Shown: in pieces, positions 717 through 50,159 of the stretch
Layout: every line of letters starts with the position of its first letter
Position numbering within the stretch: position 1 is the stretch's first letter
IMG/VR virus record: IMGVR_UViG_3300011912_000001
Source of the DNA: an uncultured virus (IMG/VR IMGVR_UViG_3300011912_000001)
Taxonomy: Duplodnaviria > Heunggongvirae > Uroviricota > Caudoviricetes
DNA length: 51,343 nt
Direction: 5' to 3' (one strand)
Notes under the pieces: generated by a model
Told to the model about the DNA's origin: nothing
Databases searched by the model: none
Seen by the model: the letters and a program-made list of their open reading frames with translations, nothing else
Position numbers and translations under genes: made by a program

Positions 717-1460
717 TTACAATGTCGTCTTCGGAGCTAAGGTCTGAATGAGATGACGACGGAACAGATAGACATCCCGTTGTTCTGAAATGCGTTGTGA
801 GACTTTGTTACCAAAAGCATACGTGAATGCTACCGCTAACGCAATGCTCGTGTAGATATGTTGCTGTTGTTCGAACGTAAAGTCTTGGTATCCTGAGACC
901 TTTCTTTTTGAAGGGAAAACGATGATATCCGAAGCACAGTTGTCACAAAAACAAGTATGAAGCAAATTGTTATTAACATGACCTTTATTTAATTTTAAAA
1001 GAAGTTCTTTTGAAAAGAATTCTGAATAAGAAAAGGATTCGAGTAGTTGATGGTAATGATTGAGACGGTCGAGAGAGAACGTCGTCGCCGCATGATTGTT
1101 CTTTACATAGGTTAAAGGATGTGTTTCAGAAAGAACAGGGTCGTCTAGAATCGCTTTGTAAAAGTTACGGGCATCCCATTCTATGAACGGGTTAGAAAAT
1201 AACCTTTTGGCTTCCGGCGGAATATAGGGAAAGTGCTTGAAGGTAAATGATTTGTACGTGATAGAAAAGACAGAGCGCGAACTCGTTTGATGATTACAAC
1301 ACGGACAAGAAAACAAGGTCGTGTTTCCGTAATGGTATAAGGGAATCGAGGCGTTCAGAGAATAATTTCCGCTCGAAGCTTCGACATGAAAACGGTGATA
1401 GGTCAGATTATAGAACTGATATAAAGCATTGACTTCTTTGACGAAGTTAGAGACTGACAT
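717..1460 (-). CDS. Orphan family A protein (two CxxC, putative Zn-binding), C-terminal tag LIQTLAPKTTL
   Basis: SCPCCN...FCDNCASD; similar to the three neighbours; RBS AAAGGAG. Confidence 0.8.
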   Translation of the reverse strand: MSVSNFVKEVNALYQFYNLTYHRFHVEASSGNYSLNASIPLYHYGNTTLFSCPCCNHQTSSRSVFSITYKSFTFKHFPYIPPEAKRLFSNPFIEWDARNFYKAILDDPVLSETHPLTYVKNNHAATTFSLDRLNHYHQLLESFSYSEFFSKELLLKLNKGHVNNNLLHTCFCDNCASDIIVFPSKRKVSGYQDFTFEQQQHIYTSIALAVAFTYAFGNKVSQRISEQRDVYLFRRHLIQTLAPKTTL

Positions 1461-1511
1461 GAAAAAACTCCTTTCTATTTAATAACTACATGATATGGAC
1501 CGTAGGGACGG

Positions 1512-2252
1512 CTATAGTCTTAATTTTGGTCCAACTTCCTGTTGAAGGAAGAAAGAAAGGTTCGGCATCGCCCGTTGAGAGTGATTTCCGAAAGCGACAA
1601 CGAGTGCGACGGATATAGCGGTCATGGTATAGATGTGAGAAAGGTAAGCTCTTTCATGTTCAATGAATTGGTTTTGGTATTTTGGAATACCACCTTCACG
1701 ATTCAAAAGGAGAAGCAACGAATGCGGATTTTCTAAAACTAAAAAGATGTCAGAGAAACAAGATTTGCAGAAGTAAGTGCGAAGCTTTACTCCTTCAAGA
1801 AGTACAGAAGTAGAACTAGGAAAAGTAGCAGAGTGTTTATTGATGTCGCGCAAAGCCGTATCTGTAAAATAAGGAGACTGTTGGAACAGTTTCAAAAGAG
1901 ATTTATAACGCATGAAACGTTCTAAAGAAAACAAGGATTCATTGCGGTTATATTGGATACTGTTCATGTGATATTTTCCTGTAATTGAAGAAGGTAAACT
2001 GTCTTGAAAAGAATTAGAATCATATTGTTCTTGAGGATGTTGACTCAAGAACTCAAAAACATCCTTATTGAGATAAGGGAAGTTCATGGCTCGAAAGTCT
2101 TTGCCTCTAATATTTAAGTGTTGCCCGCAGCAAGGACAACTTTTATTATCCTCAAGAAGAGAAAAGGCAAGAGGGCCATGGGGAAATGACTGGTTGACGG
2201 AAGTAGGAAAGAACGAGAACAAATGTTGATAGTCTTTAATAAAGGGATGCAT
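1512..2252 (-). CDS. Orphan family A protein, tag LQQEVGPKLRL
   Basis: SCPCCG...FCKSCFSD; start moved to ATG 2252 after AAAGGAG. Confidence 0.8.
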   Translation of the reverse strand: MHPFIKDYQHLFSFFPTSVNQSFPHGPLAFSLLEDNKSCPCCGQHLNIRGKDFRAMNFPYLNKDVFEFLSQHPQEQYDSNSFQDSLPSSITGKYHMNSIQYNRNESLFSLERFMRYKSLLKLFQQSPYFTDTALRDINKHSATFPSSTSVLLEGVKLRTYFCKSCFSDIFLVLENPHSLLLLLNREGGIPKYQNQFIEHERAYLSHIYTMTAISVALVVAFGNHSQRAMPNLSFFLQQEVGPKLRL

Positions 2253-2278
2253 AGGTAAATCTCCTTTCATGTGTGGGA

Positions 2279-3100
2279 TTAAAGAAGCAAGGATGGACGA
2301 AGAGTATTAATGAAGGAAGCCGGTCTTGCGTAAGCAGGGTTGAAAGCAATCGTGAGTAGATAAGAAAGAGCAAAGCCTGTAAAAGCGTAAGAAGCTTGAT
2401 AGAACAATTGAATCAGTTCTGGGGCTTCATCATTTGAAAGATTGATGAAAGAAGGTTCGAAGCCTTCGTCAAGAATCGGGCGGTGTCTTCTGTAGTAGTC
2501 ATCAAAAGCTTGGCTGTAGTTAGTGAATACTTCATAGAAGTTAACGTTCGGAACCAATGGCAAATCACTTAGGCAATTCTCACAAAACGGAATTAAGAAT
2601 TGGTTATTCATAATAGAATATAAAGGTATATTCAAAGGGGTGGAATGAAATCTCATGTTCTGATTGTTATTGTCAACAGTTAAGGTGAGATTGAAAAAGG
2701 GATTCTTTTGGAGTTGAGTTAAAGTGGAAAAGTATGTTGCCCGGTTAGCTGAATTATCAAAGTGGTCGAGAAGGAAAGGATGGGCGCGCAAAGCATGCCT
2801 AAAATAACCCATCAAATCTTTGATTGAGTCGCCCATGTTTAATTCTTGAATCGCTTTTTGTAAAGTCTCAGGGTAAGGGATATAAGAAAGTGAAGTCTGG
2901 GAAGCAACTAACAATGTTGCTCGACAATGGGGACAAAGGATGTCGGGAGGTACTTCAAGATTAACTTCATGGGGCAAAGGAGACTTTGTTAAAAACTGTG
3001 GGTCTTGAGAAATCTTACTGTACTGAGGAAGTGAATAAAGTGCTTTGGTAATGACACCGAAGTCGGTTCGCATATGAGATGAGTTATAGACGATAGTCAT
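2279..3100 (-). CDS. Orphan family A protein, tag FINTLRPSLLL
   Basis: LCPHCR...FCENCLSD; RBS present. Confidence 0.8.
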   Translation of the reverse strand: MTIVYNSSHMRTDFGVITKALYSLPQYSKISQDPQFLTKSPLPHEVNLEVPPDILCPHCRATLLVASQTSLSYIPYPETLQKAIQELNMGDSIKDLMGYFRHALRAHPFLLDHFDNSANRATYFSTLTQLQKNPFFNLTLTVDNNNQNMRFHSTPLNIPLYSIMNNQFLIPFCENCLSDLPLVPNVNFYEVFTNYSQAFDDYYRRHRPILDEGFEPSFINLSNDEAPELIQLFYQASYAFTGFALSYLLTIAFNPAYARPASFINTLRPSLLL

Positions 3101-3124
3101 AAATAAATCTCCTTTCGCTAAGAA

Positions 3125-3913
3125 TTACAGAGGTGTTGGTGGCGACGTCGATTGAAAAAAGAAACTAAGCGGCATGTCTTTGCCACGAAATTCTTTTTTG
3201 AAAGCATAATAAAAAGCATGAGAGATAACAAAGATGGTAAACAAGGTAGAAATCGTTTCGTACTTGATATGTTTGGTGTATTTTTCTGAAACATTGGTAG
3301 ATTGAAAGTGCTCAAAGCGTTGAAGTTCATCATAAAAGAATTTGTTTGGGAGAAGATAAAAGTCTTCTTCACAATGCATGCAACTGAATAAAGAAAAACC
3401 GACACAAGAGAAGTGTATCATGTCAGTTTCATTGCTATCGTCGACGACCATCGTTTTTTGATAAAGATAAGGCAAATTAAAAAAAGGGTTGTTTGAGAAC
3501 AAATGGATGAAATCATGATAGCGTTGAATACTTTGCTCGTGCCATTGATACTCTGTATGATACGTGCGCGAAACCATCTCTTGAAAATAAGAAACGGCAT
3601 CCTGATGAGAAAGAGAAGAAATAAAATCAATGAGAGTCGGAAGCGGGATAAAAATACTTTCGGGATTGCGGACTTCTGACAACTTGATGTCAAAGATATC
3701 ACTTTCAGAAGAACAGAGAGGGCAGATGGTATTCGGATTGTACATAGAATGCTCAGCGCTTACGTGACGAGGAGTTCCTTGAGTAGGAATCGGCATCGGA
3801 AATTCGGATGCTCGACGTTGAGCTTCATACACAGATTCATGAGCAGAAAAGAAACGTTGGACACGATGGATATCTTGCTTGATGAGTTCAACAGAATGGT
3901 AGGAAACAGCCAT
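3125..3913 (-). CDS. Orphan family A protein, tag FFQSTSPPTPL
   Basis: ICPLCS...SCMHCEED; RBS AAGGAGG. Confidence 0.8.
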   Translation of the reverse strand: MAVSYHSVELIKQDIHRVQRFFSAHESVYEAQRRASEFPMPIPTQGTPRHVSAEHSMYNPNTICPLCSSESDIFDIKLSEVRNPESIFIPLPTLIDFISSLSHQDAVSYFQEMVSRTYHTEYQWHEQSIQRYHDFIHLFSNNPFFNLPYLYQKTMVVDDSNETDMIHFSCVGFSLFSCMHCEEDFYLLPNKFFYDELQRFEHFQSTNVSEKYTKHIKYETISTLFTIFVISHAFYYAFKKEFRGKDMPLSFFFQSTSPPTPL

Positions 3914-4690: not shown

Positions 4691-5443
4691 TTACATGCTT
4701 GTAGTTGGTGGCGCCGTCGATTGAAACTCATTACGGGTTTCAAACTTCCGACGATAGTCTTCAGGGGAATAGACACTGAAGCTGACAATGTTGCGTGTAT
4801 TTAAGACTAGAATCGCAGGAGTAATAGCTTCAGGTTTATACGGCGTATACTCCATGTGTGGCACATCAAGGATGTCTGCTACAAGACTTTGAATGGCTTG
4901 TTTTCTACGAGAAGCCGTCAATTGTTCTTCTACACTTTCCATGTAAGAAAAAGCAAAGTTAGTGAAGAATGTTTGACCGTCTACCATTGTGATGTGTGCG
5001 ACATAATTTTCATGGACACGTTCAGGCCAATGGAAATTTTGACGGACGGCCGCCTCACTATCAGAGTCTGTAGTTTGCCTTGCTTCAGCTCCTAGAATAA
5101 TGTTTGCACTAATTCCACGACCAACTGTATCGAATTCTCCACGGTTGTCATTGGTAGTAGCCTCATTTGCCCATGTTGCACGTGGAGCATCAGTGGGTTG
5201 GTAGTCTGAAGGAATATTACCTCCTCGAATGGTACCGCTAGCGCTAATGCTTCGGGCTGTTCCTTCGAAGACAACACGTCCATTATGCAGGAATTGATAG
5301 TCTGATGTGGGTGGAGCGTAGGGTTCAGAAGCGGCTTCGACAGTTTCACGAAGACTTTCTTCTATGGTTTGATAAATCGTGCGTTGTTCTGGTGTTAAGG
5401 CATCTACAGTTTGTGGGTTTTCTTCTGGATTGTGTTCAAGCAT
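4691..5443 (-). CDS. Hypothetical protein, tag variant FQSTAPPTTSM
   Basis: 250 aa ORF; C-terminal half resembles the neighbour at 5449. Confidence 0.75.
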   Translation of the reverse strand: MLEHNPEENPQTVDALTPEQRTIYQTIEESLRETVEAASEPYAPPTSDYQFLHNGRVVFEGTARSISASGTIRGGNIPSDYQPTDAPRATWANEATTNDNRGEFDTVGRGISANIILGAEARQTTDSDSEAAVRQNFHWPERVHENYVAHITMVDGQTFFTNFAFSYMESVEEQLTASRRKQAIQSLVADILDVPHMEYTPYKPEAITPAILVLNTRNIVSFSVYSPEDYRRKFETRNEFQSTAPPTTSM

Positions 5444-6485: not shown

Positions 6486-7067
6486 TTATAAGAATGTTTT
6501 AGGAGCAAGAGGAGAAAACAACTCTGTTTTCGCTTCTTTCAATGCCTTGTAAGTTTCCGTCTTTTCAAAATAGATAAAGATGAGATACTTGAGATTCCCG
6601 ACTGCATCCGACATCTCTTGATGGGATAAGGGAGAAGAATCAATCAAATGACTAAAGGGTGCACTAGTAGGATAGATATAATGATGACGACGGGCAAGCA
6701 AGTGTTGTAAATAATAATGAATCAAATGATGTTCTTTGATTGTCTCGTCTTTTTTCTGTTGATTGATTGTATAAATAGACTGGCTTCCATCTGGTAGTTT
6801 GTAAGTGTAAGTGCTGTAAACAACTTGAACATCAACGGAGTTTCCATAAGACGTAAACTCTCTTGATACTTTTTCATCAATGCTATGCAAAATCTTATAG
6901 GTTTTAGAAGGCGGAGCGACCCTGTGAAAATCATCGAGGATGCGCATGGCTTGGTGCATGGCGGATTCATAGATGGAAGAGTGTCCCATAAAAGATGAGA
7001 CAGCGAAGGTTCTTGGACTTGAAGAGGGAGAAGCCATTCTAAAAATCTGTTCATAAGATGAAAACAT
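6486..7067 (-). CDS. Orphan family B protein, tag LFSPLAPKTFL
   Basis: Shares [YF][WF]xxTxxYK near the C-terminus with three neighbours. Confidence 0.75.
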   Translation of the reverse strand: MFSSYEQIFRMASPSSSPRTFAVSSFMGHSSIYESAMHQAMRILDDFHRVAPPSKTYKILHSIDEKVSREFTSYGNSVDVQVVYSTYTYKLPDGSQSIYTINQQKKDETIKEHHLIHYYLQHLLARRHHYIYPTSAPFSHLIDSSPLSHQEMSDAVGNLKYLIFIYFEKTETYKALKEAKTELFSPLAPKTFL

Positions 7068-7082: not shown

Positions 7083-7622
7083 CTATAAACTAAGACGCGG
7101 TGACGATGTGTCAACGAAAAATTTTAAATAGGGAGCGACATGTTTTTGATAAGTGCGAGTTTTCATCCAAAAGTCTGTCGTGCTTTGTTGTATCCAGAAG
7201 TTTGCTTTCTCGATGGATTCGACATCAAAGTTATGGTTGAGGTGTTTAATAGATACTGCATCAAAACTAGAGAAAGGAAGGGCTTCGACATGGCTCAGAA
7301 CAAAAGAACAAAAAATATCGTAAGCCCGGCGATATCCTTGAAGAGAAGATTGTAAAGTTGGGATTGTAGCATTGTTTGTAACTAGATAGCGCTTTCCTGT
7401 AACTCCACAGGTCACAGAAATCTGTATAGAGTAAGCGTTATTTTCGACTTCTCTCCCACCCATGCTAATAGTTATAGGAAGTCGTTCTTCCTTATAAGAA
7501 AAGATGAAATCAGAAGGAAGTCCGTCGATGCAAAGCGTGTCATACATCTCCATAGCTAGTCGGACATGGTTCTCATTCATCTTTCTTAAAGCTGAGAAAA
7601 ACGGATTTTGTGGCGGCTCCAA
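7083..7622 (-). CDS. Orphan family B protein, tag FVDTSSPRLSL
   Basis: TTG 7622 after AAGGAGG; AMEMYDTL..DGLPSDFIF...FWMKTRTYQ. Confidence 0.75.
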   Translation of the reverse strand: MEPPQNPFFSALRKMNENHVRLAMEMYDTLCIDGLPSDFIFSYKEERLPITISMGGREVENNAYSIQISVTCGVTGKRYLVTNNATIPTLQSSLQGYRRAYDIFCSFVLSHVEALPFSSFDAVSIKHLNHNFDVESIEKANFWIQQSTTDFWMKTRTYQKHVAPYLKFFVDTSSPRLSL

Positions 7623-7635: not shown

Positions 7636-8151
7636 TTATAGATTGTGACGTGGAGATAAAGTAGAAACAAACGGTTTTTTCGAAGGAAGGACGTATTGTT
7701 TATAGACCTTTGTCCTTTTCCAGTAAGCCGGAATCGAATACGGTAAAAAGAACTCTAAGAATGCTTTATCTTTTTCAGGAATTGATTTCTCTAGTTGTTC
7801 ATAAGGTAGTGTTCTTGTCAATTGAGGAAAGACGGCTTTGACATGTTCGATAACGAAGAGTCGGAAGAAAAGGAATAGCGCGTCCGCTTCTTTTATTTCC
7901 ATCGATTCGGGTAGTCGAATCGAATAAGAAGCCTTGGTTTGCTCATCAATGATATTGAGAGTAGCGGCGCCAAGAGAATATTTAAAGGCAAGAGGATTTC
8001 CTATACGATACAGAGAGTCTCTTTCTTGAGTAAATGAGTGAGAAAATCTGATGGAATCAGGGATGCCTCTTTCATAAATCGTTTCATAGGCTTGTTGAGC
8101 AAGCAACATGACTTCAGGCACCCATTTATAGGGTTTTCGTTGAGAACGCAT
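7636..8151 (-). CDS. Orphan family B protein, tag FVSTLSPRHNL
   Basis: AQQAYETI..RGIPDSIRF...YWKRTKVYK. Confidence 0.8.
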   Translation of the reverse strand: MRSQRKPYKWVPEVMLLAQQAYETIYERGIPDSIRFSHSFTQERDSLYRIGNPLAFKYSLGAATLNIIDEQTKASYSIRLPESMEIKEADALFLFFRLFVIEHVKAVFPQLTRTLPYEQLEKSIPEKDKAFLEFFLPYSIPAYWKRTKVYKQYVLPSKKPFVSTLSPRHNL

Positions 8152-8162: not shown

Positions 8163-8681
8163 TTATAAGAAAAGATTAGGAAGACGAGGAGAGAGCAAAG
8201 GATTTTGTATTGGCTTGATATAGAGCTTGTAGACGTTGGTCTGTTTCCAATAGTCTTGAATCGGTTTTTCAAATTCTTGCTTCAATGTCTGGGGGTCGAA
8301 CATATATTCCAAGACCATATATGACATGTCTTCGTCAATAACATCATTTAAATTTCGATTTGGATAAAGTACATTGAAATGTTCTTGAACAAGCAATCGA
8401 AGACATGAAAGTACAGGTTGAATATTGGTTGATTCATGATAAAAACGACTGGCTTTCCAAGAAAAACTGGTGCCGCTCAGTTCGTCATGTATAGTGACAG
8501 TCTTTCCATCAGCAAATTGATGCAAGATATTTCCTTGTCCATCCTGAACAAGCTTGTAATTTCTACTTGTTTTGAAGATAAATTTAAATGAGTCATGAAA
8601 GCCATTCGCATAGAGAGCATCGTAGGCTTTAAGGGCGACTTTCATCCCTTCTTCGATACCATCTTTCATTCTTTGGTCCAT
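8163..8681 (-). CDS. Orphan family B protein, tag LLSPRLPNLFL
   Basis: ALKAYDAL..NGFHDSFKF...YWKQTNVYK. Confidence 0.8.
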   Translation of the reverse strand: MDQRMKDGIEEGMKVALKAYDALYANGFHDSFKFIFKTSRNYKLVQDGQGNILHQFADGKTVTIHDELSGTSFSWKASRFYHESTNIQPVLSCLRLLVQEHFNVLYPNRNLNDVIDEDMSYMVLEYMFDPQTLKQEFEKPIQDYWKQTNVYKLYIKPIQNPLLSPRLPNLFL

Positions 8682-33693: not shown

Positions 33694-34407
33694 TTATAAA
33701 AACAAAGAAGGCGCTACGATAGGTTTGAAAGTTTCTTGCGAAGAAGACCAATCGAACAAAGGCCAGAAACGACGGTAATAGTCGTAGGAAGGAAGGTTGC
33801 GGAATTGTTCGAGGGTTAAAATGTCTTGGTCTTTTGGAGAAGAATAAACGAACGTAAGAGAAGCGGATTCAAAAACACGGGAAGATTTTGCTAAATGTTC
33901 AAATAAGAATAAGAGTTCTTTTTTTCGGTCGAATGCATGAAAAAAACAAGTGGGTTCGACCGGCGCGGACGTTTGCAAAAAGATATGGTTCATCTCTTTA
34001 GCCAAAGGTAGTAATTCTGTTTCTGAATCAGGGTTTAAAAGAAGACTAAGGAAATCCTCATTGCCTTGTGTAGCAAGTAAAGAGGGTTTAAGCAAAGAAT
34101 AGCGACGATAAGATTTTGTCATGACTTCATAGGCGATAAGAGGGTAATACAGAGGGATATGAATTCTCTTATCATCTTTTTGTGCATGGCTGAAAAGTAG
34201 ATGCGTGTAATCAACTTTTACGAAATAAAGAGGAGGGGGAAGCAACTTGCCTCCTAGGAAATGGGTTAAGGCAAATTGAAGTAATTGACGTTGACCCTCT
34301 TCAGCGGATAACGTAAAAGCATCCATTCTTTTGATGGCTTTATGGTGCTGTCTGATAAAAGCATCAAAGTTATGCGTGAGGTCTTCTGCTGTATAAATCG
34401 TCAACAC
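33694..34407 (-). CDS. Orphan protein, tag FKPIVAPSLFL
   Basis: 237 aa ORF, AGGAGG RBS. Confidence 0.75.
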   Translation of the reverse strand: MLTIYTAEDLTHNFDAFIRQHHKAIKRMDAFTLSAEEGQRQLLQFALTHFLGGKLLPPPLYFVKVDYTHLLFSHAQKDDKRIHIPLYYPLIAYEVMTKSYRRYSLLKPSLLATQGNEDFLSLLLNPDSETELLPLAKEMNHIFLQTSAPVEPTCFFHAFDRKKELLFLFEHLAKSSRVFESASLTFVYSSPKDQDILTLEQFRNLPSYDYYRRFWPLFDWSSSQETFKPIVAPSLFL

Positions 34408-36146: not shown

Positions 36147-36713
36147 CTAAAGGGTTAAACGAGGACCTTGAACGCGTTGGAGTTGAGGGCTCCGTATAGT
36201 CTCCATCAAGTTTCTGATGGATTTTAAAGCGTCGCGTTGATAGGTACGCGCCATGATTTTGCGTTTAGAAGAAGTATTAAAATTCGTTTTCTTGCCATAG
36301 ATACCAACATAGGGAGGGTCATCTGTTTCGGTGACAGGCATTGCCGCCAACGCTTCGTCAACATTAGAAACTAAAATCATGCTAGTTGGAAAGTAATATT
36401 TAACGGCAGGACCTAAGGTCAAGGTTGCTTCTCGAATGCCTCGCGTATCAAAAGTGCGTTCATGTACATTATAATACTTGAGAAGCAAATCAAAGGCATA
36501 TTTCCGAACAATGGGATATAAATCATTGGAAAAATCAAAACGTGGAGTAAAAGTAAAAGGATTCTTATATAAAATAAAGAGACCGTAGGCATACTCTCCA
36601 TCAAATTCTCGAATGCTGACGATAATACCCAAGGATTGATGCTTCATATGAAAATGAGAAGAGCTAGAAAGACTGGAAGGACGAACGATGTCGCCGATTT
36701 CAAAGGATGCCAT
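36147..36713 (-). CDS. Orphan family C protein, tag LQRVQGPRLTL
   Basis: GDIVRP...HFHMKHQSLGIIV shared with neighbours. Confidence 0.75.
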   Translation of the reverse strand: MASFEIGDIVRPSSLSSSSHFHMKHQSLGIIVSIREFDGEYAYGLFILYKNPFTFTPRFDFSNDLYPIVRKYAFDLLLKYYNVHERTFDTRGIREATLTLGPAVKYYFPTSMILVSNVDEALAAMPVTETDDPPYVGIYGKKTNFNTSSKRKIMARTYQRDALKSIRNLMETIRSPQLQRVQGPRLTL

Positions 36714-36729: not shown

Positions 36730-37257
36730 TTAAAGTCGGAGGAATGGAATCGAAAGAGGTTGGAAAGGTTGCAAAGCAACGAGTTCCTTTAAGTGTTTCG
36801 TACGCGAAGCCATAAAGCGGTCGAAAGTGACATACGACTGAGACATTTGATTGTGTGCCAAGTGTGCGTTTACTAACATCCCTTCTTCGAAAGAAGAAAC
36901 CCGTTGAAGGTCTCTTTCTTTGACCTTGACACGGAGACGGTCGTATCGTTCTGCTAAAGCATAGACTTTATTGCTGTTTGAAGGAGTCGAGACCCTAATA
37001 AAATTCTCAAGGGCTGTGCGGCAGACACCTGAGTCGATTTTATAAAAAGAAGAAGTCAACCATGTATAGGTTGGTTGAAGGCCATGCGCATAAGGATTCG
37101 CATATAAACAAAGAATGACATATTCACGATTATGAACGTCAGGGTTTTTGACATGCAAGACGATACCAAAAGCTTGGTTCTTCGCATGAAAGTAATTCGT
37201 CAAATTACTCCCTCGTATAGAAGGAGTAGGAACGACAAAATCTCCGGGTTTTAACAT
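36730..37257 (-). CDS. Orphan family C protein, tag FQPLSIPFLRL
   Basis: GDFVVP...YFHAKNQAFGIVL. Confidence 0.75.
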   Translation of the reverse strand: MLKPGDFVVPTPSIRGSNLTNYFHAKNQAFGIVLHVKNPDVHNREYVILCLYANPYAHGLQPTYTWLTSSFYKIDSGVCRTALENFIRVSTPSNSNKVYALAERYDRLRVKVKERDLQRVSSFEEGMLVNAHLAHNQMSQSYVTFDRFMASRTKHLKELVALQPFQPLSIPFLRL

Positions 37258-37271: not shown

Positions 37272-37748
37272 TTATAAAAATATTTTGGGTAGATTGATGG
37301 AAGAAAAAAGACACAAATGGGAAAGATAATGCTCATGGAAATAGTCAGGGCGAAGACAATATTTCATGACACTGTTAAGGGGTATTCCATTTAAATGCGC
37401 TAAATCTGATAAAGCCTCTAAATAACCAGTAGAGGTCGGCGTCATCACTTTCAAGGAAGAAACCATTCGGTCTGGAGATACCAAATCATAATGAAGTAAA
37501 TTGGAACAATTTGTTGTGAAGTTCAAAGAATGATAGGTTTGCTTGCCTTTAAAAATATTAGAAAGAGTTTCGTTAATGGCAGTGCGGTCTCTTGTATTCA
37601 TATGAAAAGAATGATACTTAGATTGAATAACAAAAATACGAAGCGGCTCCACGTTCATAACAATGGCGAACATGTTATCTTGTTTTGCAAAAAAAGAGCC
37701 GGGGTTTTCTGAGATACCATATATGATATCGTGTAGTTTCAGTTCCAT
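37272..37748 (-). CDS. Orphan family C protein, tag FSSINLPKIFL
   Basis: HDIIYG...FFAKQDNMFAIVM. Confidence 0.75.
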   Translation of the reverse strand: MELKLHDIIYGISENPGSFFAKQDNMFAIVMNVEPLRIFVIQSKYHSFHMNTRDRTAINETLSNIFKGKQTYHSLNFTTNCSNLLHYDLVSPDRMVSSLKVMTPTSTGYLEALSDLAHLNGIPLNSVMKYCLRPDYFHEHYLSHLCLFSSINLPKIFL

Positions 37749-39136: not shown

Positions 39137-39565
39137 TTATAAGGTTGTAGGTCGAATAAAAACAGCAGGTTCAAAGCTTGTAGTCTCATAGATACGAGAG
39201 CTAGGACAATCAGGTTTTTCAGAGATAGGAGCAAAAAACAATTTCTTTAAAGCAAAAGAATAAAATTGAGTTTCTTTGTCGAGAAAGACAAAAAACTCAT
39301 CCCGAATAGAGGGAATGCTTAAACTTTGGTTAAGTCTTTCTTTTATATCTAAGGTAGGGAGACGTTGAGGATTATAACTATAATGGCGTAAGACCTCTTG
39401 AATGTACTGATGGGTCTTTTCATTGCCTTGGAAAAAATAATACTCTCTACCTTCTAGAACGTCTTTCCCCAAGAAAGGAATGTGATAATGAAAACAATAG
39501 TCTGGTGAAGGTTTAGCTCTTTGAAGATAAGCCATTTGACGTTTTTGAGTCATAGAAAGATACAT
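39137..39565 (-). CDS. Orphan protein, tag variant FEPAVFIRPTTL
   Basis: AAGGAGG RBS. Confidence 0.7.
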   Translation of the reverse strand: MYLSMTQKRQMAYLQRAKPSPDYCFHYHIPFLGKDVLEGREYYFFQGNEKTHQYIQEVLRHYSYNPQRLPTLDIKERLNQSLSIPSIRDEFFVFLDKETQFYSFALKKLFFAPISEKPDCPSSRIYETTSFEPAVFIRPTTL

Positions 39566-40563: not shown

Positions 40564-41205
40564 TTATCGTAAGACGATGGATGGGTAAAATTGACCGTTG
40601 AAAATGAACTCGCCTTTGGCATCAATGATGTCAGGACCGTTCTCTGGTTTTTGCTTTGTTGTCGTGTACGCATAGACTTTATGCTTAGTGCCGATATACT
40701 TAGCTTTCTTGACGTTCGTCATGTAGCTGTATTCCATGCCTACGACGTCATCTTTCTTTAGAAGGGTTTTGCCTTGCTTCAGTTTTTTCGTGTAGCCATC
40801 AGCCGAATATGTGGCACTGATGTCAAAGTCACGGGCGGCATCGAACTCTTCTTTGAACATCAAGTAACTATCGCCGGAAGTCCGTTTAATAGAAGTGTTG
40901 CGGACATACGGAGATTTCGTTGACCCTTGAATCAAAACAAGGACTTGGTCATTCGGGTCTTTACGGAAAGAAGCAATCGTTTTTAGGTCGACGACGGCGT
41001 TCCCGTACTTGTTCAGTTTGGCTTTCTTGAATGTGTAATGCCCGTCTTCAATCGTATATGTCTTGTTCTTATACGAACTTGGGAAGTTAATCGTGACTTT
41101 CGCATCGCTGACTTTGATGGAAGCGACAGGTTTTGCCGCCTCCGCCATCAAAGCAGGGGAAAGAAAAACAGTTCCAACAGTAGCAAGTGCAATCAATTTT
41201 TTCAT
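40564..41205 (-). CDS. Secreted basic protein
   Basis: Signal peptide MKKLIALATVGTVFLSPALMAEA. Confidence 0.8.
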   Translation of the reverse strand: MKKLIALATVGTVFLSPALMAEAAKPVASIKVSDAKVTINFPSSYKNKTYTIEDGHYTFKKAKLNKYGNAVVDLKTIASFRKDPNDQVLVLIQGSTKSPYVRNTSIKRTSGDSYLMFKEEFDAARDFDISATYSADGYTKKLKQGKTLLKKDDVVGMEYSYMTNVKKAKYIGTKHKVYAYTTTKQKPENGPDIIDAKGEFIFNGQFYPSIVLR

Positions 41206-41225: not shown

Positions 41226-41687
41226 TTAAAGGGATGTGGGAATAGTAATCGTTTGAAAACGTGAGGCTTTTGTGAGAATGGCAAAATTGAAAGAAACATA
41301 ACCATGTACCGGACTATGCGTCATGCTTTTTGTCAATTCAGGATGACGGTGCGAAAATCCTAACATCTCATGTTGATGCGCTACATCTTCCATGACAACA
41401 GAAACACGAGTATGGGGCACCATGTTAAAGAGAATAGCACCTTGTAGGGGAGAGACGACAAAGGTTCCATTATGGTATTTTGCCCAAAAGCCTTCAGAAA
41501 AGGAGTGTTTCTCTGCTACAAAGACTCGCATGATTTCTGGAGTGAATTTAACATGAGAGCCAATAGCAAATTTATTTATCGTTAACAAGTTAAAGTCTGT
41601 ATCAAATGTAATGGATGGAATGGAGCGTTTGCTCATGTTTTTTTTTTGTTTAAGAAAAGCTTTCTGAAAACGAACAGATTCAACCAT
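41226..41687 (-). CDS. Orphan protein, tag variant FQTITIPTSL
   Basis: ATG 41687 after AAGGAGG. Confidence 0.7.
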   Translation of the reverse strand: MVESVRFQKAFLKQKKNMSKRSIPSITFDTDFNLLTINKFAIGSHVKFTPEIMRVFVAEKHSFSEGFWAKYHNGTFVVSPLQGAILFNMVPHTRVSVVMEDVAHQHEMLGFSHRHPELTKSMTHSPVHGYVSFNFAILTKASRFQTITIPTSL

Positions 41688-43648: not shown

Positions 43649-44140
43649 TCAGAGGGGAGTAGGAACAGTGGTAGTAGGTTGGAAACGGGCTGTTAGGGGT
43701 TGAAGTAGAAGTTTAGGGACGTGAAAACCAGCGCCGCTATTCATACCACAATTCGGAAAAGCAAGTTCGCCGGCAATAAAGCCATATAGCATCTGGTCCG
43801 TATGAAAATTGCCAGTGGTAATGGTTAACGTCGGAAGTTCATAATCTTTGCGAAGAAAATAAACATCTCGTTGAAACGGAATCAAACGAAGACGATTTGA
43901 TTGAATGAAATCGGCATGCTGTTCGACTTGGTCGGTTTTTTCCAAATACATGTGAATATGACGAAAGATATCAGGAATAAATGAGAACTCGTCTCCCATT
44001 TGATGCCCATGAATAGTGAGAAGTGAAAAGTATTCTTCTCCTTTTGCATCTGTATGGAGTGGAATAAAAGTAGCAAATTCTTGGGAGCGGGTCGTGCGTT
44101 TTTTAGTGTAGGCAAAAGGGACATTCCTAGAAATACTCAC
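43649..44140 (-). CDS. Orphan protein, tag variant FQPTTTVPTPL
   Basis: GTG 44140 after AAAGGAG. Confidence 0.7.
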   Translation of the reverse strand: MSISRNVPFAYTKKRTTRSQEFATFIPLHTDAKGEEYFSLLTIHGHQMGDEFSFIPDIFRHIHMYLEKTDQVEQHADFIQSNRLRLIPFQRDVYFLRKDYELPTLTITTGNFHTDQMLYGFIAGELAFPNCGMNSGAGFHVPKLLLQPLTARFQPTTTVPTPL

Positions 44141-46537: not shown

Positions 46538-47122
46538 TTAAAGACTAGACATGGGTCTGATTATATTTTCGAAAGAAGCAACCCGGTAATCGTTTATAAC
46601 TTTTTGATAGGGTGTAAAGTCTTGAAAGAACTCCTGAAAGAACTGAAAATGCTGTGGTTGAAGACGAAACACACAAGCTGTATTGAAAGCGAAAGGTGGA
46701 GTATCTCTTAGGTGATAGCGTTTTTGGGCAAAACGATTCATAAAGGAATCGTATTCATCGAATCCGTCCCTAGCATAAATCGACATCTGATAACGCTTGC
46801 GCGAAGACCCATTTTGAAACGCTAAAAATTTGGTCAGATACTGTTCGAGATAAGCGGAAGGAGTTCCGAAAGCGGTATTAACTTTTTTCGTTTCTACCAT
46901 GACGATATGAGTCACAAGATAATTTTCTTCTTCTTCTCCCGGCAAAATAGGATGCTGTGGAAGAAAAATGAGGAAAAAAGGTTCTAAAGAAAAGATGTTC
47001 GGATTATAGGCGGGGTCGTTCCTATGGTCGAAATAATGCTGGGCATATTGACGATAAAATTCCTGAAACTTTTCCATGAAAGCGGGATTGAACACTTGAA
47101 TGGGAAAACGTCCATAAGACAT
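46538..47122 (-). CDS. Orphan family D protein, tag FENIIRPMSSL
   Basis: FN...VFRLQPQHFQFFQEFF shared with 47141 and 48300. Confidence 0.8.
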   Translation of the reverse strand: MSYGRFPIQVFNPAFMEKFQEFYRQYAQHYFDHRNDPAYNPNIFSLEPFFLIFLPQHPILPGEEEENYLVTHIVMVETKKVNTAFGTPSAYLEQYLTKFLAFQNGSSRKRYQMSIYARDGFDEYDSFMNRFAQKRYHLRDTPPFAFNTACVFRLQPQHFQFFQEFFQDFTPYQKVINDYRVASFENIIRPMSSL

Positions 47123-47140
47123 TAGAAGCTACACATCCTT

Positions 47141-47710
47141 TTAGAGAAAATGAGTGGGAGGAGAAGTCGAAGTAAAAGGTTTAAAGTGTTGCTGAAATTG
47201 TGGGAAATCTATGAAAAAGTCTTTGAAGTAATGATAATCTTCCGGTTGCAACCGAAATACCACGTGTGGATTAAAAAGTCCGTCCCCTAAGTTATATGTT
47301 TTGATTTCTCCATAGTCTTTCACAGAGTCAGCAAAACTTCTTAAAGGCAAAGGTCTTTCTGTATAATCAGGGATAGGGCGTCGAAGAAAAAAGCCTTCGA
47401 ATTGATGATGACGGGCGACAATAAATCCTTGACTGTCCGTATACAGATATTGAACGAAAACAATTGCAAAAGCAGAATCTCCCCGTAAATCGATGGTATT
47501 GCCTAGCTGAGGAGGAATATGGATAAGAAAGAAAGATTCTTTTTCTTTAAATGAAGGGTGGAATTTTTCTATATCACGAGAAGCGTTCAAAAAATAGAAC
47601 TCTTGACGTTCCTCATGAAATTTTTTGTAAGCTTTAAAGAAATCAGGATTTCCAATTTGATAGGGAAAAGAAGCCTTATCTTCTAATCCCTGTAATGGGT
47701 TCGTATACAT
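47141..47710 (-). CDS. Orphan family D protein, tag FTSTSPPTHFL
   Basis: FNPHVVFRLQPEDYHYFKDFF. Confidence 0.8.
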   Translation of the reverse strand: MYTNPLQGLEDKASFPYQIGNPDFFKAYKKFHEERQEFYFLNASRDIEKFHPSFKEKESFFLIHIPPQLGNTIDLRGDSAFAIVFVQYLYTDSQGFIVARHHQFEGFFLRRPIPDYTERPLPLRSFADSVKDYGEIKTYNLGDGLFNPHVVFRLQPEDYHYFKDFFIDFPQFQQHFKPFTSTSPPTHFL

Positions 47711-47722
47711 GGGAACCTCCTA

Positions 47723-48286: not shown

Positions 48287-48299
48287 AATAAACATCTCC

Positions 48300-48905
48300 T
48301 TATAAAGTGTTTTTAGGTGGAGCCGCATTCAAAAACATGTGATGCGGATGCTGTTTCATTTTATCTTGAAACGGTTTGAAATGAGCAAAGAATGGAGCAA
48401 AATAATGAAAATGTTCGGGTTGAAGCTGGAAGACAACTTCACTATTGAAACAGTTGAAGTGCTCAGCCGTTCTTAGCGTTCTCTTATCTCCAATATGCGC
48501 TATCATGTCCTCATAGGGAACAAAAGGTTCATCATCAGAAAAATCTTTCCATTCTGCTAACTTCTTTCCATGAACATAAGGAGAAAGTTCAAAACGAGAA
48601 AACCGATAAGAGTTTTGTGTCACATCAATACCGACAAGCTTGTCATAAGACTCGACGTAAACGATGGGAGTTATGAAGGTGACGGCATCTTGAGAAGAAG
48701 CATCAGAAGGAAGATAAATCAAAAAGACATCTTCTGGCTTTTCAACACGGCATGTATACGAATTATAAGAAGAGGGGCTTAGTATTTTTTGAACATATTC
48801 TGCTTGATATTGTTCGCGGAAAGCCCGATAAATGTCTTGATATTCGGGGATACTTTTGAAGTTAGGGAACAGTCTTCGTTCGGGCGGTGTATCATTCTTT
48901 TTCAT
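48300..48905 (-). CDS. Orphan family D protein, tag FLNAAPPKNTL
   Basis: ATG 48905 after AAAGGAG; FNSEVVFQLQPEHFHYFAPFF. Confidence 0.8.
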   Translation of the reverse strand: MKKNDTPPERRLFPNFKSIPEYQDIYRAFREQYQAEYVQKILSPSSYNSYTCRVEKPEDVFLIYLPSDASSQDAVTFITPIVYVESYDKLVGIDVTQNSYRFSRFELSPYVHGKKLAEWKDFSDDEPFVPYEDMIAHIGDKRTLRTAEHFNCFNSEVVFQLQPEHFHYFAPFFAHFKPFQDKMKQHPHHMFLNAAPPKNTL

Positions 48906-48922
48906 GCGTGTTCTCCTTTCAT

Positions 48923-49474
48923 TTATAAGGAGGCCGTAGGCCCCCGCTCTTTCGATTTTTGAAGAGTGTTGCGTATTTTTGTCGTTGGTTTCGTTGAAGA
49001 AACAGGATGAGGCATTTTCAGACGCTGATGATGCATCTCGCAAGTGGAAGCAAAGCTCATGGCATTCGATGCCGCTTGGCGCTTAAAGGATTCCAAGCAT
49101 TCGTGATACCGTTCAGCGTAGATGCCCTTCTTGCATTCTTCAACGAAAGACAATAGAATGGTCTGCTTGAGAATCTCAATTTCAGATTCTGCAAAAAAGA
49201 AACGAGGGTAACGGGGAGAATGCGAGTGTTTGCGAAAGACTGCGACTTGTTCGGGTGTCATCCCTAGCATCAAATTAAAACGATAATCATACTTGGGGTT
49301 GCCCCGATGGTCACTGATACGAATACTATAGTTGGCGCCGTAATCCATCTTGATATAGGTGCTGTTACTCGTAGTCGCTCGTCGGACATGTGTCGTAAAA
49401 TCATTTTCTGTTAAAAAGGTTAAGAGGTTACGGGTAACACGTTTGTTCGCGGTCGTCCGCTTGATGTTTGGCAT
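48923..49474 (-). CDS. Hypothetical protein with STY...SIRISDH motif
   Basis: ATG 49474; ends in PTASL. Confidence 0.7.
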   Translation of the reverse strand: MPNIKRTTANKRVTRNLLTFLTENDFTTHVRRATTSNSTYIKMDYGANYSIRISDHRGNPKYDYRFNLMLGMTPEQVAVFRKHSHSPRYPRFFFAESEIEILKQTILLSFVEECKKGIYAERYHECLESFKRQAASNAMSFASTCEMHHQRLKMPHPVSSTKPTTKIRNTLQKSKERGPTASL

Positions 49475-49490
49475 AATAAAAGTCACATCC

Positions 49491-50159
49491 TTAGAGAGTA
49501 AGTGTAGGGACAAAAGAAGGAGAAAGTTGTTCAAAAGAACGAGTGGTGACAGAGGCATATTGGTCAATGGTCAACCAAGAAATATGAAAATAAAAAGCAT
49601 TGTTAATACACGTAACATTTAGTGGAAAACGTGCCTTATCTGACATCTGGTTGAAGGGTGGGACGTTGAATTGATTAAAGGGAAGATTAAGAGGAAAACT
49701 GATATAGGGGTATTTCTTAGAAAGAAAAATACGAAGCAAAGAACGAGAACACAGGATTTCTCGCATGGTACATTTGACACCGTTAATCGAATGATGACCG
49801 GGGAAATGTGAAATCAAAGATTCCGTGAAATCAAACAGATGCGGATAATATTCAGCACCATTGATTTTGCGGGCATCAACAAGAGAACGAACGAACAAAT
49901 GAAATTGTTCCGTGTATGATCTGCCAATCGAAGCTTGTAAACGGTCAGGTAATTTAAAGTATAAATCGGACTGGCGTGCTTTCTTGTTAAAAAACAAATG
50001 AAGATGCGTTACCGAATAGCTTGGAATGGGTTTGTCTAGGGTTGGTCGAATCGGAGCTTCACTTTCGTTAAACAGATGGTAATAGGGGTTTTCTTTTGTT
50101 TGACAGCCATGATAGTTTCGAAAACGAGACATATGGCGATTGAATTGATAGAAAGTCAT
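49491..50159 (-). CDS. Orphan protein, tag LSPSFVPTLTL
   Basis: 222 aa ORF. Confidence 0.75.
   Translation of the reverse strand: MTFYQFNRHMSRFRNYHGCQTKENPYYHLFNESEAPIRPTLDKPIPSYSVTHLHLFFNKKARQSDLYFKLPDRLQASIGRSYTEQFHLFVRSLVDARKINGAEYYPHLFDFTESLISHFPGHHSINGVKCTMREILCSRSLLRIFLSKKYPYISFPLNLPFNQFNVPPFNQMSDKARFPLNVTCINNAFYFHISWLTIDQYASVTTRSFEQLSPSFVPTLTL

What the first reader, a model, noticed from the sequence alone, without database searches (positions are those of the whole stretch)
717..50159. Shared C-terminal tag [F/L]-x5-P-x3-L-COOH on about 20 unrelated orphan proteins: a candidate sorting/targeting system
Seen in sequence: 17 ORFs end exactly in P-x-x-x-L-stop (PKTTL 717, PKLRL 1512, PSLLL 2279, PPTPL 3125, PKTFL 6486, PRLSL 7083, PRHNL 7636, PNLFL 8163, PSLFL 33694, PRLTL 36147, PFLRL 36730, PKIFL 37272, PMSSL 46538, PTHFL 47141, PKNTL 48300, PTASL 48923, PTLTL 49491). 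Three end in PxxL (39137, 41226, 43649) and one in PTTSM (4691). Most have F or L six residues before the Pro (FKPIVAP, FSSINLP, FENIIRP, FLNAAPP, FVSTLSP, FQPLSIP). Carriers belong to at least four families with no evident mutual similarity, plus singletons; they are 140-275 aa, F/Y/H-rich and lack signal peptides. None of the recognisable enzymes carries the tag, and the underlying DNA is not a repeat. Inference: a free C-terminus 'address' read by one receptor, e.g. capsid/compartment loading, translocation through a conjugation or secretion machine, a PDZ/TPR-type adaptor or degron, or a substrate adaptor of the co-encoded Ubl ligation system. I know of no described system with this motif.
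Basis: partly seen in the sequence, partly recalled or inferred. Interest (0 to 1): 0.92.

Follow-up and report, generated by a model that had tools for sequence, protein, structure and literature searches.

The report
Shared end-tag on phage orphan proteins
About a quarter of the genes on this piece of a giant Bacillus-type phage encode otherwise unrelated, unknown proteins that all end in the same 11-residue peptide, which looks like a common address or docking label whose reader is still unknown.

Summary
Of 81 minus-strand gene products, 16 end exactly in [F/L]-x5-P-x3-L-COOH, against 8 of 14,540 internal windows. Four more carry close variants (three P-x2-L, one ending in Met). The 17th P-x3-L case (48923) is probably a terminator-hairpin coincidence.

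Selection acts on the protein. Pro and Leu codons vary, and the tail does not pair with the next ribosome site more than in untagged genes.

Carriers fall into four BLAST families plus singletons, with no profile similarity beyond the tail. By hydropathy they have no signal peptide and no clear membrane segment. In the one usable model the tail is low-confidence coil.

All 8 distant homologues of one family, from other uncultured sequences, keep the tail. The whole genomes of the two nearest published phages have none: 0 of 546 and 0 of 466 ORFs. One of them carries a different tail on about 40 small orphans.

Best reading: a portable docking peptide read from its free end by one partner, probably phage-encoded. 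Loading into the virion is my leading guess and a degradation tag is next. No reader was found, and a link to the Ubl operon is unsupported.

The parts
717..1460 (-). Tagged gene, family A (247 aa), ends LIQTLAPKTTL
   Evidence: ortholog 221/247 identical keeps the tail
1512..2252 (-). Tagged gene, family A (246 aa; alternative start 2270), ends LQQEVGPKLRL
   Evidence: an ortholog has T instead of L at -11
2279..3100 (-). Tagged gene, family A (273 aa), ends FINTLRPSLLL
3125..3913 (-). Tagged gene, family A (262 aa), ends FFQSTSPPTPL. The AF2 model has its tail (254-262) as low-confidence coil
4691..5443 (-). Variant carrier (250 aa, acidic singleton), ends FQSTAPPTTSM (Met in place of Leu). 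Its tail DNA is 22/23 identical to that of 3125
6486..7067 (-). Tagged singleton (193 aa), ends LFSPLAPKTFL
7083..7622 (-). Tagged gene, family B (179 aa), ends FVDTSSPRLSL
7636..8151 (-). Tagged gene, family B (171 aa), ends FVSTLSPRHNL
8163..8681 (-). Tagged gene, family B (172 aa), ends LLSPRLPNLFL. Orthologs 153/172 and 133/172 identical keep PNLFL
33694..34407 (-). Tagged singleton (237 aa; start uncertain), ends FKPIVAPSLFL and is followed directly by a terminator
36147..36713 (-). Tagged gene, family C (188 aa), ends LQRVQGPRLTL
36730..37257 (-). Tagged gene, family C (175 aa), ends FQPLSIPFLRL
37272..37748 (-). Tagged gene, loosely family C (158 aa), ends FSSINLPKIFL
39137..39565 (-). 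Variant carrier (142 aa), ends ...FIRPTTL (P-x2-L)
41226..41687 (-). Variant carrier (153 aa), ends FQTITIPTSL (F-x5-P-x2-L)
43649..44140 (-). Variant carrier (163 aa), ends FQPTTTVPTPL (P-x2-L, F at -11)
46538..47122 (-). Tagged gene, family D (194 aa), ends FENIIRPMSSL
47141..47710 (-). Tagged gene, family D (189 aa), ends FTSTSPPTHFL
48300..48905 (-). Tagged gene, family D (201 aa), ends FLNAAPPKNTL
49491..50159 (-). Tagged singleton (222 aa), ends LSPSFVPTLTL
48923..49474 (-). Doubtful case: ends GPTASL but has K at -11. Its tail is encoded by a terminator-like hairpin, and its KLEB27-3 relative is untagged
   Evidence: (D7)
40564..41205 (-). Near miss: 213-aa orphan ending FNGQFYPSIVL-R, which is the motif plus one extra residue

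Best explanation
The tail [F/L]-x2-(hydrophobic)2-[K/R/small]-P-[K/R/T/S]-[L/T/I]-x-L-COOH is a portable short linear motif. It is a flexible 11-residue end-piece on a variable linker that has been attached to, or kept on, many unrelated fast-evolving accessory proteins of one clade of giant Bacillus-type phages. One common partner reads it from the free C-terminus.

Shown:
- The motif lies exactly at the terminus.
- Selection acts on the amino acids, not the nucleotides.
- The tail is conserved over deep divergence.
- The carriers have no signal peptide and no clear membrane segment by hydropathy, and are unrelated to each other.
- The tail is absent from the nearest published phages.

Inferred:
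- There is a single reader.
The reason is that a related phage (WH1) carries a quite different shared tail on its own orphans, and another (KLEB27-3) carries neither.

The tail would bind the inside of the capsid shell, the scaffold or the core, as the C-terminal peptides of encapsulin cargo and of prohead proteases do, and as the N-terminal capsid-targeting sequence of T4 internal proteins does. I put about 0.3 on this. A bipartite degradation or adaptor tag of the ssrA/SspB kind comes next at about 0.25, then docking on a replication or transcription hub at about 0.15-0.2.

The confidence given below is for the general statement (a protein-level docking tag with one common reader), not for the virion-loading sub-claim.
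For: Enrichment:
- 16 of 81 products end in the full motif, against 8 of 14,540 internal windows.
- No other frame among 1,227 carries it.

Protein-level selection:
- All four Pro codons and all six Leu codons are used at the anchor positions.
- 5 of 20 carriers have no Shine-Dalgarno match within 20 nt downstream.
- Tail-to-downstream duplex energies are the same in tagged and untagged genes (means -6.0 and -5.9 kcal/mol, P = 0.77).

Portability:
- Families A-D and the singletons show no BLASTP or hhalign similarity apart from the tail.
- 22 of 23 bases are shared between the tail DNA of the unrelated genes 3125 and 4691.

Deep conservation:
- All 8 distant family-A homologues found by HMM search end in the tail, 7 as P-x3-L and 1 as P-x2-L.
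- P and L are 2 of only 11 invariant columns among 369, at 14-36% identity to the first sequence.
- The linker before the tail varies from roughly 17 to 32 residues by my reading of the alignment.

Flexibility: residues 254-262 of the AF2 model of 3125 have pLDDT below 50 and are coil, while the body is modelled at pTM 0.78.

Location in the cell: no carrier has a signal-peptide-like or clearly membrane-spanning stretch by hydropathy.

Clade restriction and a co-evolving reader:
- 0 of 546 ORFs in WH1 and 0 of 466 in KLEB27-3 end in P-x3-L.
- WH1 has another tail on 39 of 545 ORFs, where roughly one is expected (my estimate from the internal rate). Its carriers fall into 23 BLAST clusters.

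Precedent for terminal capsid-targeting peptides: T4 CTS and the C-terminal propeptide of the SPN3US protease (passages read in PMC7411985).
Against: - No reader was found, and the window holds only 51 kb of a 237-kb genome.
- The timing of expression is unknown. The sigma-70-type promoter scan is not above shuffles.
- The tagged genes sit among replication and accessory genes and not in a structural module. One tagged array starts behind a short motif (ATAGCCAA after a terminator) that also precedes the DnaE operon. This fits early or middle expression better than late, and so weighs against virion loading.
- Among close orthologues the tail is only mildly more conserved than the body (8/154 against 245/2562 changes, P = 0.085). 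The -11 anchor changed once.
- Paralogy inflates the simple statistics.
- Common descent of all carriers from one ancestor cannot be excluded with profiles of only 3-4 sequences.
Confidence: 0.6

Rival explanations
1. Degradation or adaptor tag. The tail is a bipartite C-terminal degron. An upstream part (F and hydrophobic residues) is bound by an adaptor, and the terminal x-L-COOH is taken by an AAA+ unfoldase. This would give timed removal of accessory or take-over proteins.
For: - The tail is a terminal, low-confidence-coil 11-residue peptide with a hydrophobic last residue and a free carboxylate.
- The two nearest published phages each carry a gene annotated as a ClpP proteolytic subunit outside their structural modules (annotation as deposited).
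- The carriers lie among non-structural genes.
- The bipartite 11-residue ssrA/SspB/ClpX precedent is recalled, not from a call.
Against: - There is no sequence likeness to known degrons.
- A host ClpX-type reader is highly conserved, so it would not explain why related Bacillus phages carry a different tail or none.
- ClpP is present in both tail-less relatives, so it does not co-occur with the tail.
- No protease or adaptor gene lies in the window.
Confidence: 0.25
2. Docking on a hub such as a phage or host sliding clamp, RNA polymerase or another take-over target. The model is the C-terminal clamp-binding tails shared by T4 gp43, gp33 and gp55.
For: - The related phage 0305phi8-36 is reported to encode a divergent PolIII-beta homologue without a clamp loader (passages read in PMC3201878).
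- Short C-terminal hydrophobic peptides are the usual clamp ligands (recalled).
Against: - The tail does not resemble QL[SD]LF-type motifs.
- The phage's own DnaE C-terminus (…[13 protein letters not shown]) does not carry the tail.
- No DNA_pol3_beta match (PF00712) was found in WH1 or KLEB27-3 at E <= 0.01.
- About twenty orphan ligands would be unusual for a clamp.
Confidence: 0.15
3. Common descent rather than a portable tag. All carriers would derive from one ancestral gene by tandem duplication, and the tail would be the only part that stayed recognisable.
For: - Carriers lie in tandem arrays.
- They share an unusual pyrimidine-rich coding strand (0.559 against 0.491) and an F/P/H/Y/S-rich composition.
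- Profiles of 3-4 sequences have little power.
Against: - hhalign probabilities are below 1% for all four family pairs tested.
- Lengths range from 142 to 273 aa. Only family A has the CxxC…CxxC pairs.
- Tail DNA is shared between the unrelated 3125 and 4691.
- Even if true, this still requires strong selection on the tail, so it is not exclusive of the main reading.
Confidence: 0.2
4. Substrate or adaptor tag of the co-encoded Ubl (PRTRC-like E1/E2/Ubl) operon.
For: - E1-type enzymes act on free C-terminal carboxylates (established chemistry, recalled).
- The operon lies between tagged clusters.
- Its 543-aa member has no tblastn match in WH1 or KLEB27-3 but has homologues at 59-99% identity in other uncultured sequences.
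Against: - The E1, E2, Ubl and two further operon genes have homologues in WH1 and KLEB27-3, which have no such tail.
- Ubl-type E1 substrates end in Gly, not Leu (recalled).
Confidence: 0.06
5. A nucleotide-level signal (ribosome-site overlap, anti-Shine-Dalgarno hairpin, terminator or cleavage site) or chance.
For: - 15 of 20 tagged genes have a Shine-Dalgarno match within 20 nt of the stop. Tail DNA is 68% pyrimidine, against 48% in untagged genes.
- One case (48923) is indeed explained by a terminator hairpin.
- In WH1 part of its own tail (K-x-E) often coincides with the next gene's ribosome site.
Against: - Third codon positions vary freely.
- 5 carriers have no nearby ribosome site, and duplex energies do not differ (P = 0.77).
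- Untagged genes with the same downstream ribosome sites lack the tail.
- Distant homologues keep the amino acids.
- Chance is excluded.
Confidence: 0.03

Closest known systems
T4 capsid targeting sequence (CTS) of internal proteins IPI-III and Alt (passages read in PMC7411985; Mullaney and Black 1996 cited there, not read)
   Same: A short terminal peptide shared by otherwise unrelated phage proteins. It addresses them to one phage structure.
   Different: - The CTS is N-terminal, 10-20 aa long, and is cut off by the prohead protease.
- The tail here is at the extreme C-terminus with no evident cleavage site.
- Packaging of its carriers has not been shown.
Encapsulin cargo-loading peptides, and C-terminal targeting tails of prohead proteases and scaffolds in HK97-fold shells (encapsulin part recalled; SPN3US gp245 C-terminal propeptide from PMC7411985)
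   Same: A peptide of about 10 residues at the C-terminus, behind a flexible linker of variable length, carried by unrelated cargo.
   Different: - There is no sequence likeness.
- The capsid genes are outside the window, so adjacency cannot be examined.
- About 20 cargo genes in 51 kb would be far more than in any encapsulin system (recalled).
ssrA tag with the SspB adaptor and ClpX (recalled)
   Same: An 11-residue, disordered, strictly C-terminal peptide with two recognition parts and a non-polar free end.
   Different: - The ssrA tag is added co-translationally by tmRNA, whereas this tail is genome-encoded on each protein.
- The sequences are unrelated (no LAA end).
- No protease link has been shown.
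C-terminal sliding-clamp-binding tails of T4 gp43, gp33 and gp55 (recalled; also named as closest known in the earlier scan note e1-5801370)
   Same: Unrelated phage proteins share a short hydrophobic C-terminal peptide that docks on one phage hub.
   Different: - T4 has only a handful of ligands, all in replication or transcription.
- The motif is different.
- No clamp gene was seen here or, by Pfam, in the two nearest relatives.
PDZ-type recognition of free C-termini ([S/T] or hydrophobic at -3 counted from a terminal hydrophobic residue; recalled)
   Same: 13 of 17 P-x3-L tails have L, I, T or S two residues before the terminal Leu, which fits class I/II PDZ ligands.
   Different: - No PDZ domain is detectable in the window.
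- Bacterial PDZ proteins mostly act outside the cytoplasm (recalled).
- The conserved Pro at -5 and Phe at -11 reach beyond a usual PDZ footprint.

Membership tests
T4-type capsid targeting sequence | Short terminal peptide shared by unrelated proteins of one phage | tested here: met
   16-20 carriers in at least 9 BLAST-independent lineages
T4-type capsid targeting sequence | N-terminal position and removal by the prohead protease at a conserved site | tested here: not met
   The motif is at the extreme C-terminus and no shared N-terminal peptide is seen
T4-type capsid targeting sequence | Carriers are found inside the virion | not testable with these tools
   No proteome data; no sequencing run was listed
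Encapsulin-type cargo-loading peptide | C-terminal peptide of about 10 aa behind a flexible, variable linker | tested here: met
   Linker of roughly 17-32 aa in family A by my reading of the alignment; tail pLDDT below 50 and coil
Encapsulin-type cargo-loading peptide | HK97-fold shell gene next to the cargo, and binding to its inner face | not testable with these tools
   Structural genes lie outside the 51-kb window; the rest of the contig could not be fetched
ssrA/SspB/ClpX-type C-terminal degron | Disordered C-terminal peptide with a non-polar free end | tested here: met
   Terminal Leu in 19 of 20 carriers and Met in 1; tail is low-confidence coil in the AF2 model
ssrA/SspB/ClpX-type C-terminal degron | LAA-like end, and dependence on ClpXP or another AAA+ protease | tested here: not met
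   No tail ends in LAA or similar. Protease dependence is not testable here
Bacterial sliding-clamp-binding motif | QL[SD]LF / QLxLxL-type peptide (recalled consensus) | tested here: not met
   The tails do not fit. The phage DnaE C-terminus lacks the tail
Bacterial sliding-clamp-binding motif | A clamp gene in the phage | tested here: inconclusive
   PF00712 was not found in WH1 or KLEB27-3. A divergent homologue is reported in 0305phi8-36 (PMC3201878). The window's own genome is not available
Sortase / exosortase-type C-terminal sorting signals | N-terminal signal peptide, motif followed by a membrane helix and a basic tail | tested here: not met
   No signal-peptide-like stretch and no clear membrane segment in 20 carriers. 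Nothing follows the motif
PDZ-ligand C-termini | [S/T/hydrophobic]-x-hydrophobic-COOH | tested here: met
   13 of 17 P-x3-L tails have L, I, T or S at -3, and all end in Leu
PDZ-ligand C-termini | A PDZ-domain reader encoded with the ligands | tested here: inconclusive
   No PDZ hit among the 82 window proteins at E <= 0.01. 186 kb of the genome was not seen
Ubl / E1 substrates (PRTRC-like operon) | C-terminal Gly(-Gly) fed into an E1 adenylation site; co-occurrence of the substrate tag with the operon | tested here: not met
   The tails end in Leu. Operon genes are present in the tail-less WH1 and KLEB27-3

The most novel reading that the evidence does not exclude
A clade of giant Bacillus-type phages encodes its own protein-addressing system. 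One fast-evolving phage receptor reads an 11-residue free C-terminal peptide carried by about a quarter of the accessory genes seen here. It uses the peptide to load these otherwise unrelated proteins into the virion, which would be an encapsulin-like cargo system working in a real virus, or into another phage-built compartment. Earlier unchecked notes of this scan list further tags in other huge phages. Together these would make phage-specific C-terminal address codes a general and so far undescribed feature of giant-phage biology.
Probability: 0.3. Interest if true: 0.9.

Novelty: new variant of a known kind. Interest (0 to 1): 0.78.

Why it matters
Giant phages carry hundreds of orphan genes that resist annotation. 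A shared, portable end-tag groups about twenty of them into one functional class. It also offers a direct experimental handle: a peptide pull-down, reporter fusions and virion proteomics would each be informative.

It would also link virus assembly to encapsulin cargo loading. If the tag is a degron, it would reveal programmed proteolysis of a whole class of phage proteins.

A related phage has a different tail on its own orphans.

Tried and rejected
Fetching more of the genome or its relatives:
- No whole genome is held for the window.
- An exact 40-mer from the window start was not found in viral, genome or metagenome contigs.
- The search for related loci gave no locus with families A and D, NADAR, a family-A sub-alignment, or the 543-aa protein and its alignment.
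- The one metagenome hit (L008, 40% identity over 40 residues) is a chance word match, not a relative.
- Sequencing runs: none was listed, and no RNA holder was listed.

Function of the carriers:
- No Pfam family passes its curated cut-off in any carrier; the one match below E = 0.01 is a sub-threshold zf-Di19 hit in 3125 (18.7 bits against a cut-off of 27.5). No PHROG hit.
- tblastn of 3125 against 50,697 phage records found nothing.
- The ESM Atlas gave no usable hit for 3125 or for the 543-aa protein.
- AF2 of family D was too poor to use (pLDDT 46.6).
- The family A model (pLDDT 73.6) has no fold match: Foldseek on PDB and on BFVD found nothing at E <= 0.001, and the best VIA-align Z was 3.9.

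Reader:
- The complex prediction of the 543-aa Ubl-operon protein with the family A tail returned 'no answer' (scores 0.35, 0.18, 0.21 against a mark of 0.32). This is no evidence either way.
- NCBIfam added only PRTRC-type names, an RNase H-like hit and a weak Spx-like hit.

Other checks:
- The anti-Shine-Dalgarno hairpin idea was rejected.
- Sigma-70-type promoter matches are not above shuffles, so expression timing is not inferable.
- Rfam found no family at gathering score.
- Two full-text searches for a described shared C-terminal tag in jumbo phages found nothing relevant (listings and abstract starts only). No paper holds the names vB_BceM_WH1 or KLEB27-3.

Full report
**What the window is.** All long ORFs lie on the minus strand, and most are preceded by strong Shine-Dalgarno sites.

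Pfam finds the following:
- a DnaE-type polymerase in three pieces, with a LAGLIDADG gene between two of them
- Sir2, GmrSD-N, DHH/DHHA1, NADAR, PTH2 and SPFH domains, and two phosphoesterases
- an E1/E2/Ubl set that NCBIfam names PRTRC-like

The nearest published relatives are the jumbo Bacillus phages vB_BauM_KLEB27-3, vB_BceM_WH1 and Edson. Their DnaE is 52-58% identical at the protein level, and ThiF, NADAR, DnaE and Sir2 lie in the same order. The window's proteins are on record on a 237,343-base contig. So this is 51 kb of an uncultured giant phage of a Bacillus-like host.

I called 81 minus-strand genes.
- Seventeen products end in P-x3-L, and sixteen of them have F or L at -11.
- Three end in P-x2-L.
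- One (4691) has the full spacing but ends in Met.

The full motif occurs 8 times in 14,540 internal windows of the same proteins. Among 1,227 stop-to-stop frames of 25 aa or more it occurs only in the tagged genes. In the complete genomes of WH1 and KLEB27-3, 0 of 546 and 0 of 466 ORFs of 60 aa or more end in P-x3-L.

The simple binomial value (about 1e-36) overstates independence, because many carriers are paralogues. Even so, at least nine lineages carry the tail with no BLASTP link to one another.

One listed case is probably spurious. 48923 has K at -11. Its tail is encoded by a copy of a GC-rich terminator-like hairpin (family D7). Its only relative, in KLEB27-3, ends differently.

Position preferences beyond the three anchors:
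- K/R/T/S at -4
- L/T/I at -3
- small or basic residues at -6
- hydrophobic residues at -7 and -8

**Protein level, not nucleotide level.** All four Pro codons and all six Leu codons are used at the anchors.

I tested whether the pyrimidine-rich tail pairs with the downstream ribosome site. Duplex energies are the same for 20 tagged and 60 untagged genes (means -6.0 and -5.9 kcal/mol, Mann-Whitney P = 0.77). Five tagged genes have no Shine-Dalgarno match within 20 nt. The repeat search shows no tail repeat family.

Two pairs of tails do share DNA:
- 22 of 23 bases between the unrelated genes 3125 and 4691
- 24 of 33 bases between 6486 and 8163

This looks like recent transfer of the tail between genes.

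**The carriers.** BLASTP gives four families:
- A: 717, 1512, 2279, 3125
- B: 7083, 7636, 8163
- C: 36147, 36730, and loosely 37272
- D: 46538, 47141, 48300

There is also a weak pair (41226 and 43649), and the rest are singletons. Profile-profile comparison of four family pairs (A-D, B-D, A-B, C-D) gives probabilities below 1%. The only alignment that makes sense is the last 31 columns of B and D, which is the tail and the aromatic stretch before it.

Within families the tail P and L are invariant although overall identity is 16-33%.

Other properties:
- No carrier has a Pfam match above the curated cut-off or any PHROG match; the only Pfam row below E = 0.01 is a sub-threshold zf-Di19 hit in 3125.
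- None has a signal-peptide-like stretch, and the highest 19-residue hydropathy (1.65) stays below the 1.88-3.35 of the window's membrane controls.
- They are rich in F, P, H, Y and S and poor in G, W, E, K and D.
- Their coding strand is unusually pyrimidine-rich: 0.559 against 0.491 in untagged genes.

**Conservation elsewhere.** Word-based searches of 5.8 billion proteins found only the window's own family D members. For family B they also found two orthologues of 8163 from other assemblies.

Cluster look-ups show near relatives on other contigs. In 14 orthologue pairs the tail changed at 8 of 154 positions and the body at 245 of 2,562 (Fisher P = 0.085). The P and L anchors never changed (0 of 28 by my reading of the printed tails). 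The -11 anchor changed once. This is only a trend.

The strong evidence comes from the exhaustive HMM search with family A. It found eight further homologues (E from 1e-25 to 4e-5), all from uncultured sequences. Every one ends in the tail: seven as [F/L]-x5-P-x3-L and one as F-x5-P-x2-L.

In the 12-sequence alignment, identity to the first sequence is 14-36%, and only 11 of 369 columns are invariant. Two of those are the tail P and L. By my reading of the alignment, the segment between the last helix and the tail varies from roughly 17 to 32 residues.

AF2 on this alignment gives a usable model (pLDDT 73.6, pTM 0.78). Residues 254-262 are coil with pLDDT below 50. The fold has no clear match in PDB or BFVD.

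**Relatives without the tail, and one with another tail.** WH1 and KLEB27-3 lack the tail completely. They also have no tblastn match to any carrier.

While reading WH1, I saw that about 40 of its small proteins (75-190 aa), lying in arrays, end in N-(N)-x6-8-[hydrophobic]-[K/R]-x-[E/D]-x3-5. This fits 39 of 545 ORFs; from the internal rate I estimate that about 0.8 is expected. With the last 20 residues removed, 43 proteins selected by a slightly looser pattern fall into 23 BLAST clusters. None of the 16 tested has a Pfam match, and one has a weak PHROG match.

Part of that tail (K-x-E) often doubles as the next gene's ribosome site. It is also present, however, where a separate ribosome site follows the stop. 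KLEB27-3 shows at most a trace of this tail (5 of 238 ORFs in 100 kb).

The window has no PDZ, TPR or protease domain.

The Ubl operon is not specific to tag-bearing phages. Its E1, E2, Ubl and the two halves of another gene have homologues in both tail-less relatives. Its 543-aa member has no match there, but it has four homologues of 59-99% identity in other uncultured sequences. The rest of the genome could not be fetched.

**How it most likely works.**

Shown: a low-confidence-coil, strictly terminal 11-residue peptide with three fixed anchors is kept by selection on unrelated proteins of one phage clade that lack signal peptides.

Inferred: one partner binds it end-on, because no tail has an extension except the near miss 40564, which carries one extra Arg.

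Also inferred: the partner is phage-encoded. Related phages of Bacillus hosts carry a different tail or none, which a conserved host protein would not explain.

For the role of the partner I commit to virion loading, at about 0.3. C-terminal peptides address proteases, scaffolds and encapsulin cargo to HK97-fold shells, and T4 uses a shared terminal peptide for its internal proteins (passages read in PMC7411985; the encapsulin part is recalled). Paralogous orphan families are also typical of giant-phage head contents (recalled).

Against this, the carriers sit among replication and accessory genes. One tagged array follows the same post-terminator motif as the DnaE operon.

A bipartite degron comes next at about 0.25. 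Hub docking (0.15), common descent (0.2, not exclusive of the main reading) and a Ubl link (0.06) follow. A nucleotide signal or chance is at 0.03.

**Novelty.** Terminal address peptides are a known kind. This tail, its carriers and its clade are not described in Pfam or PHROGs, nor in the papers returned by two full-text searches (listings only).

Earlier notes of this scan report other shared C-terminal tags in other huge phages or giant mobile elements. Those are unchecked AI notes and I did not test them. Together with the WH1 tail, they raise the possibility that phage-specific C-terminal codes are common in giant phages.

Noticed in passing
L002 (LC597490.1 150001-200000) and L003 (200001-229829): Phage vB_BceM_WH1 has its own shared C-terminal tail, N-(N)-x6-8-hydrophobic-[K/R]-x-[E/D]-x3-5. 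It is on 39 of 545 ORFs, where I estimate about 0.8 is expected from the internal rate. The carriers are small orphans in arrays; 43 selected by a slightly looser pattern fall into 23 BLAST clusters. The K-x-E part often overlaps the next gene's ribosome site, but not always.
   Followed up: partly
window 25393-32925 (minus strand): A PRTRC-like Ubl operon: ThiF-type E1 (25393-26370), Prok-E2_D / PRTRC_B (29477-30283) and a 172-aa protein made of three Ubl-like repeats (32407-32925; DNA repeats D2/D3). It also holds a fast-evolving 543-aa orphan (30308-31939). The WH1 homologue of the triple-Ubl protein (gp211) is annotated 'virion structural protein' as deposited.
   Followed up: partly
window 26425-29223: Genes 28426-29223 and 26425-27315 both match one WH1 gene (gp215). 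In the window they are separated by a LAGLIDADG/HTH gene (27330-28142) and a 283-base gap. This looks like a gene split by a homing-endonuclease insertion. No Rfam intron reached gathering score.
   Followed up: partly
window 19302-24004: The DnaE polymerase is in three ORFs (22313-24004, 21249-22334, 19302-20144). A LAGLIDADG gene (20513-21193) and a 229-base gap lie between the last two. DnaE is also split in WH1 and KLEB27-3.
   Followed up: no
window 3125-3160 and 4691-4726: The tail-coding DNA of two unrelated neighbouring genes shares 22 of 23 bases (TTTCAATCGACG.CGCCACCAAC). This suggests recent transfer of the tail by recombination.
   Followed up: partly
window 717-8681, 33694-50159: Tagged genes have a pyrimidine-rich coding strand (mean 0.559 against 0.491 in untagged genes). 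This shows up as positive GC and AT skew of the plus strand in those regions. The cause is unknown.
   Followed up: partly
window 16048-16092, 17741-17785, 33050-33094, 33121-33165, 33650-33694, 34717-34761: A family of six near-identical terminator hairpins (core GGGGCGTAGCCCC plus a T-run on the minus strand).
   Followed up: no
window about 8690-8715, 16108-16139, 24034-24065, 32312-32343: A short motif (ATAGCCAA on the transcribed strand) follows terminators upstream of the tagged array 8163-6486, gene 15348 and the DnaE operon. A further repeat copy lies at 32312-32343. It may be a phage-specific promoter element.
   Followed up: no
window 9026-9035, 12876-12885, 22340-22349, 26086-26095, 32200-32211, 43170-43179: Six runs of 10-12 N interrupt genes, read as X in translations. 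They are masking, not biology.
   Followed up: no
window 35439-35906: A weak Spx/ArsC-like protein (E = 1.4e-5, below cut-off). WH1 and KLEB27-3 also carry genes annotated as Spx regulators.
   Followed up: no
window 40564-41205: A 213-aa orphan ends FNGQFYPSIVL-R. This is the motif with one extra residue, possibly a decayed or variant tag.
   Followed up: no
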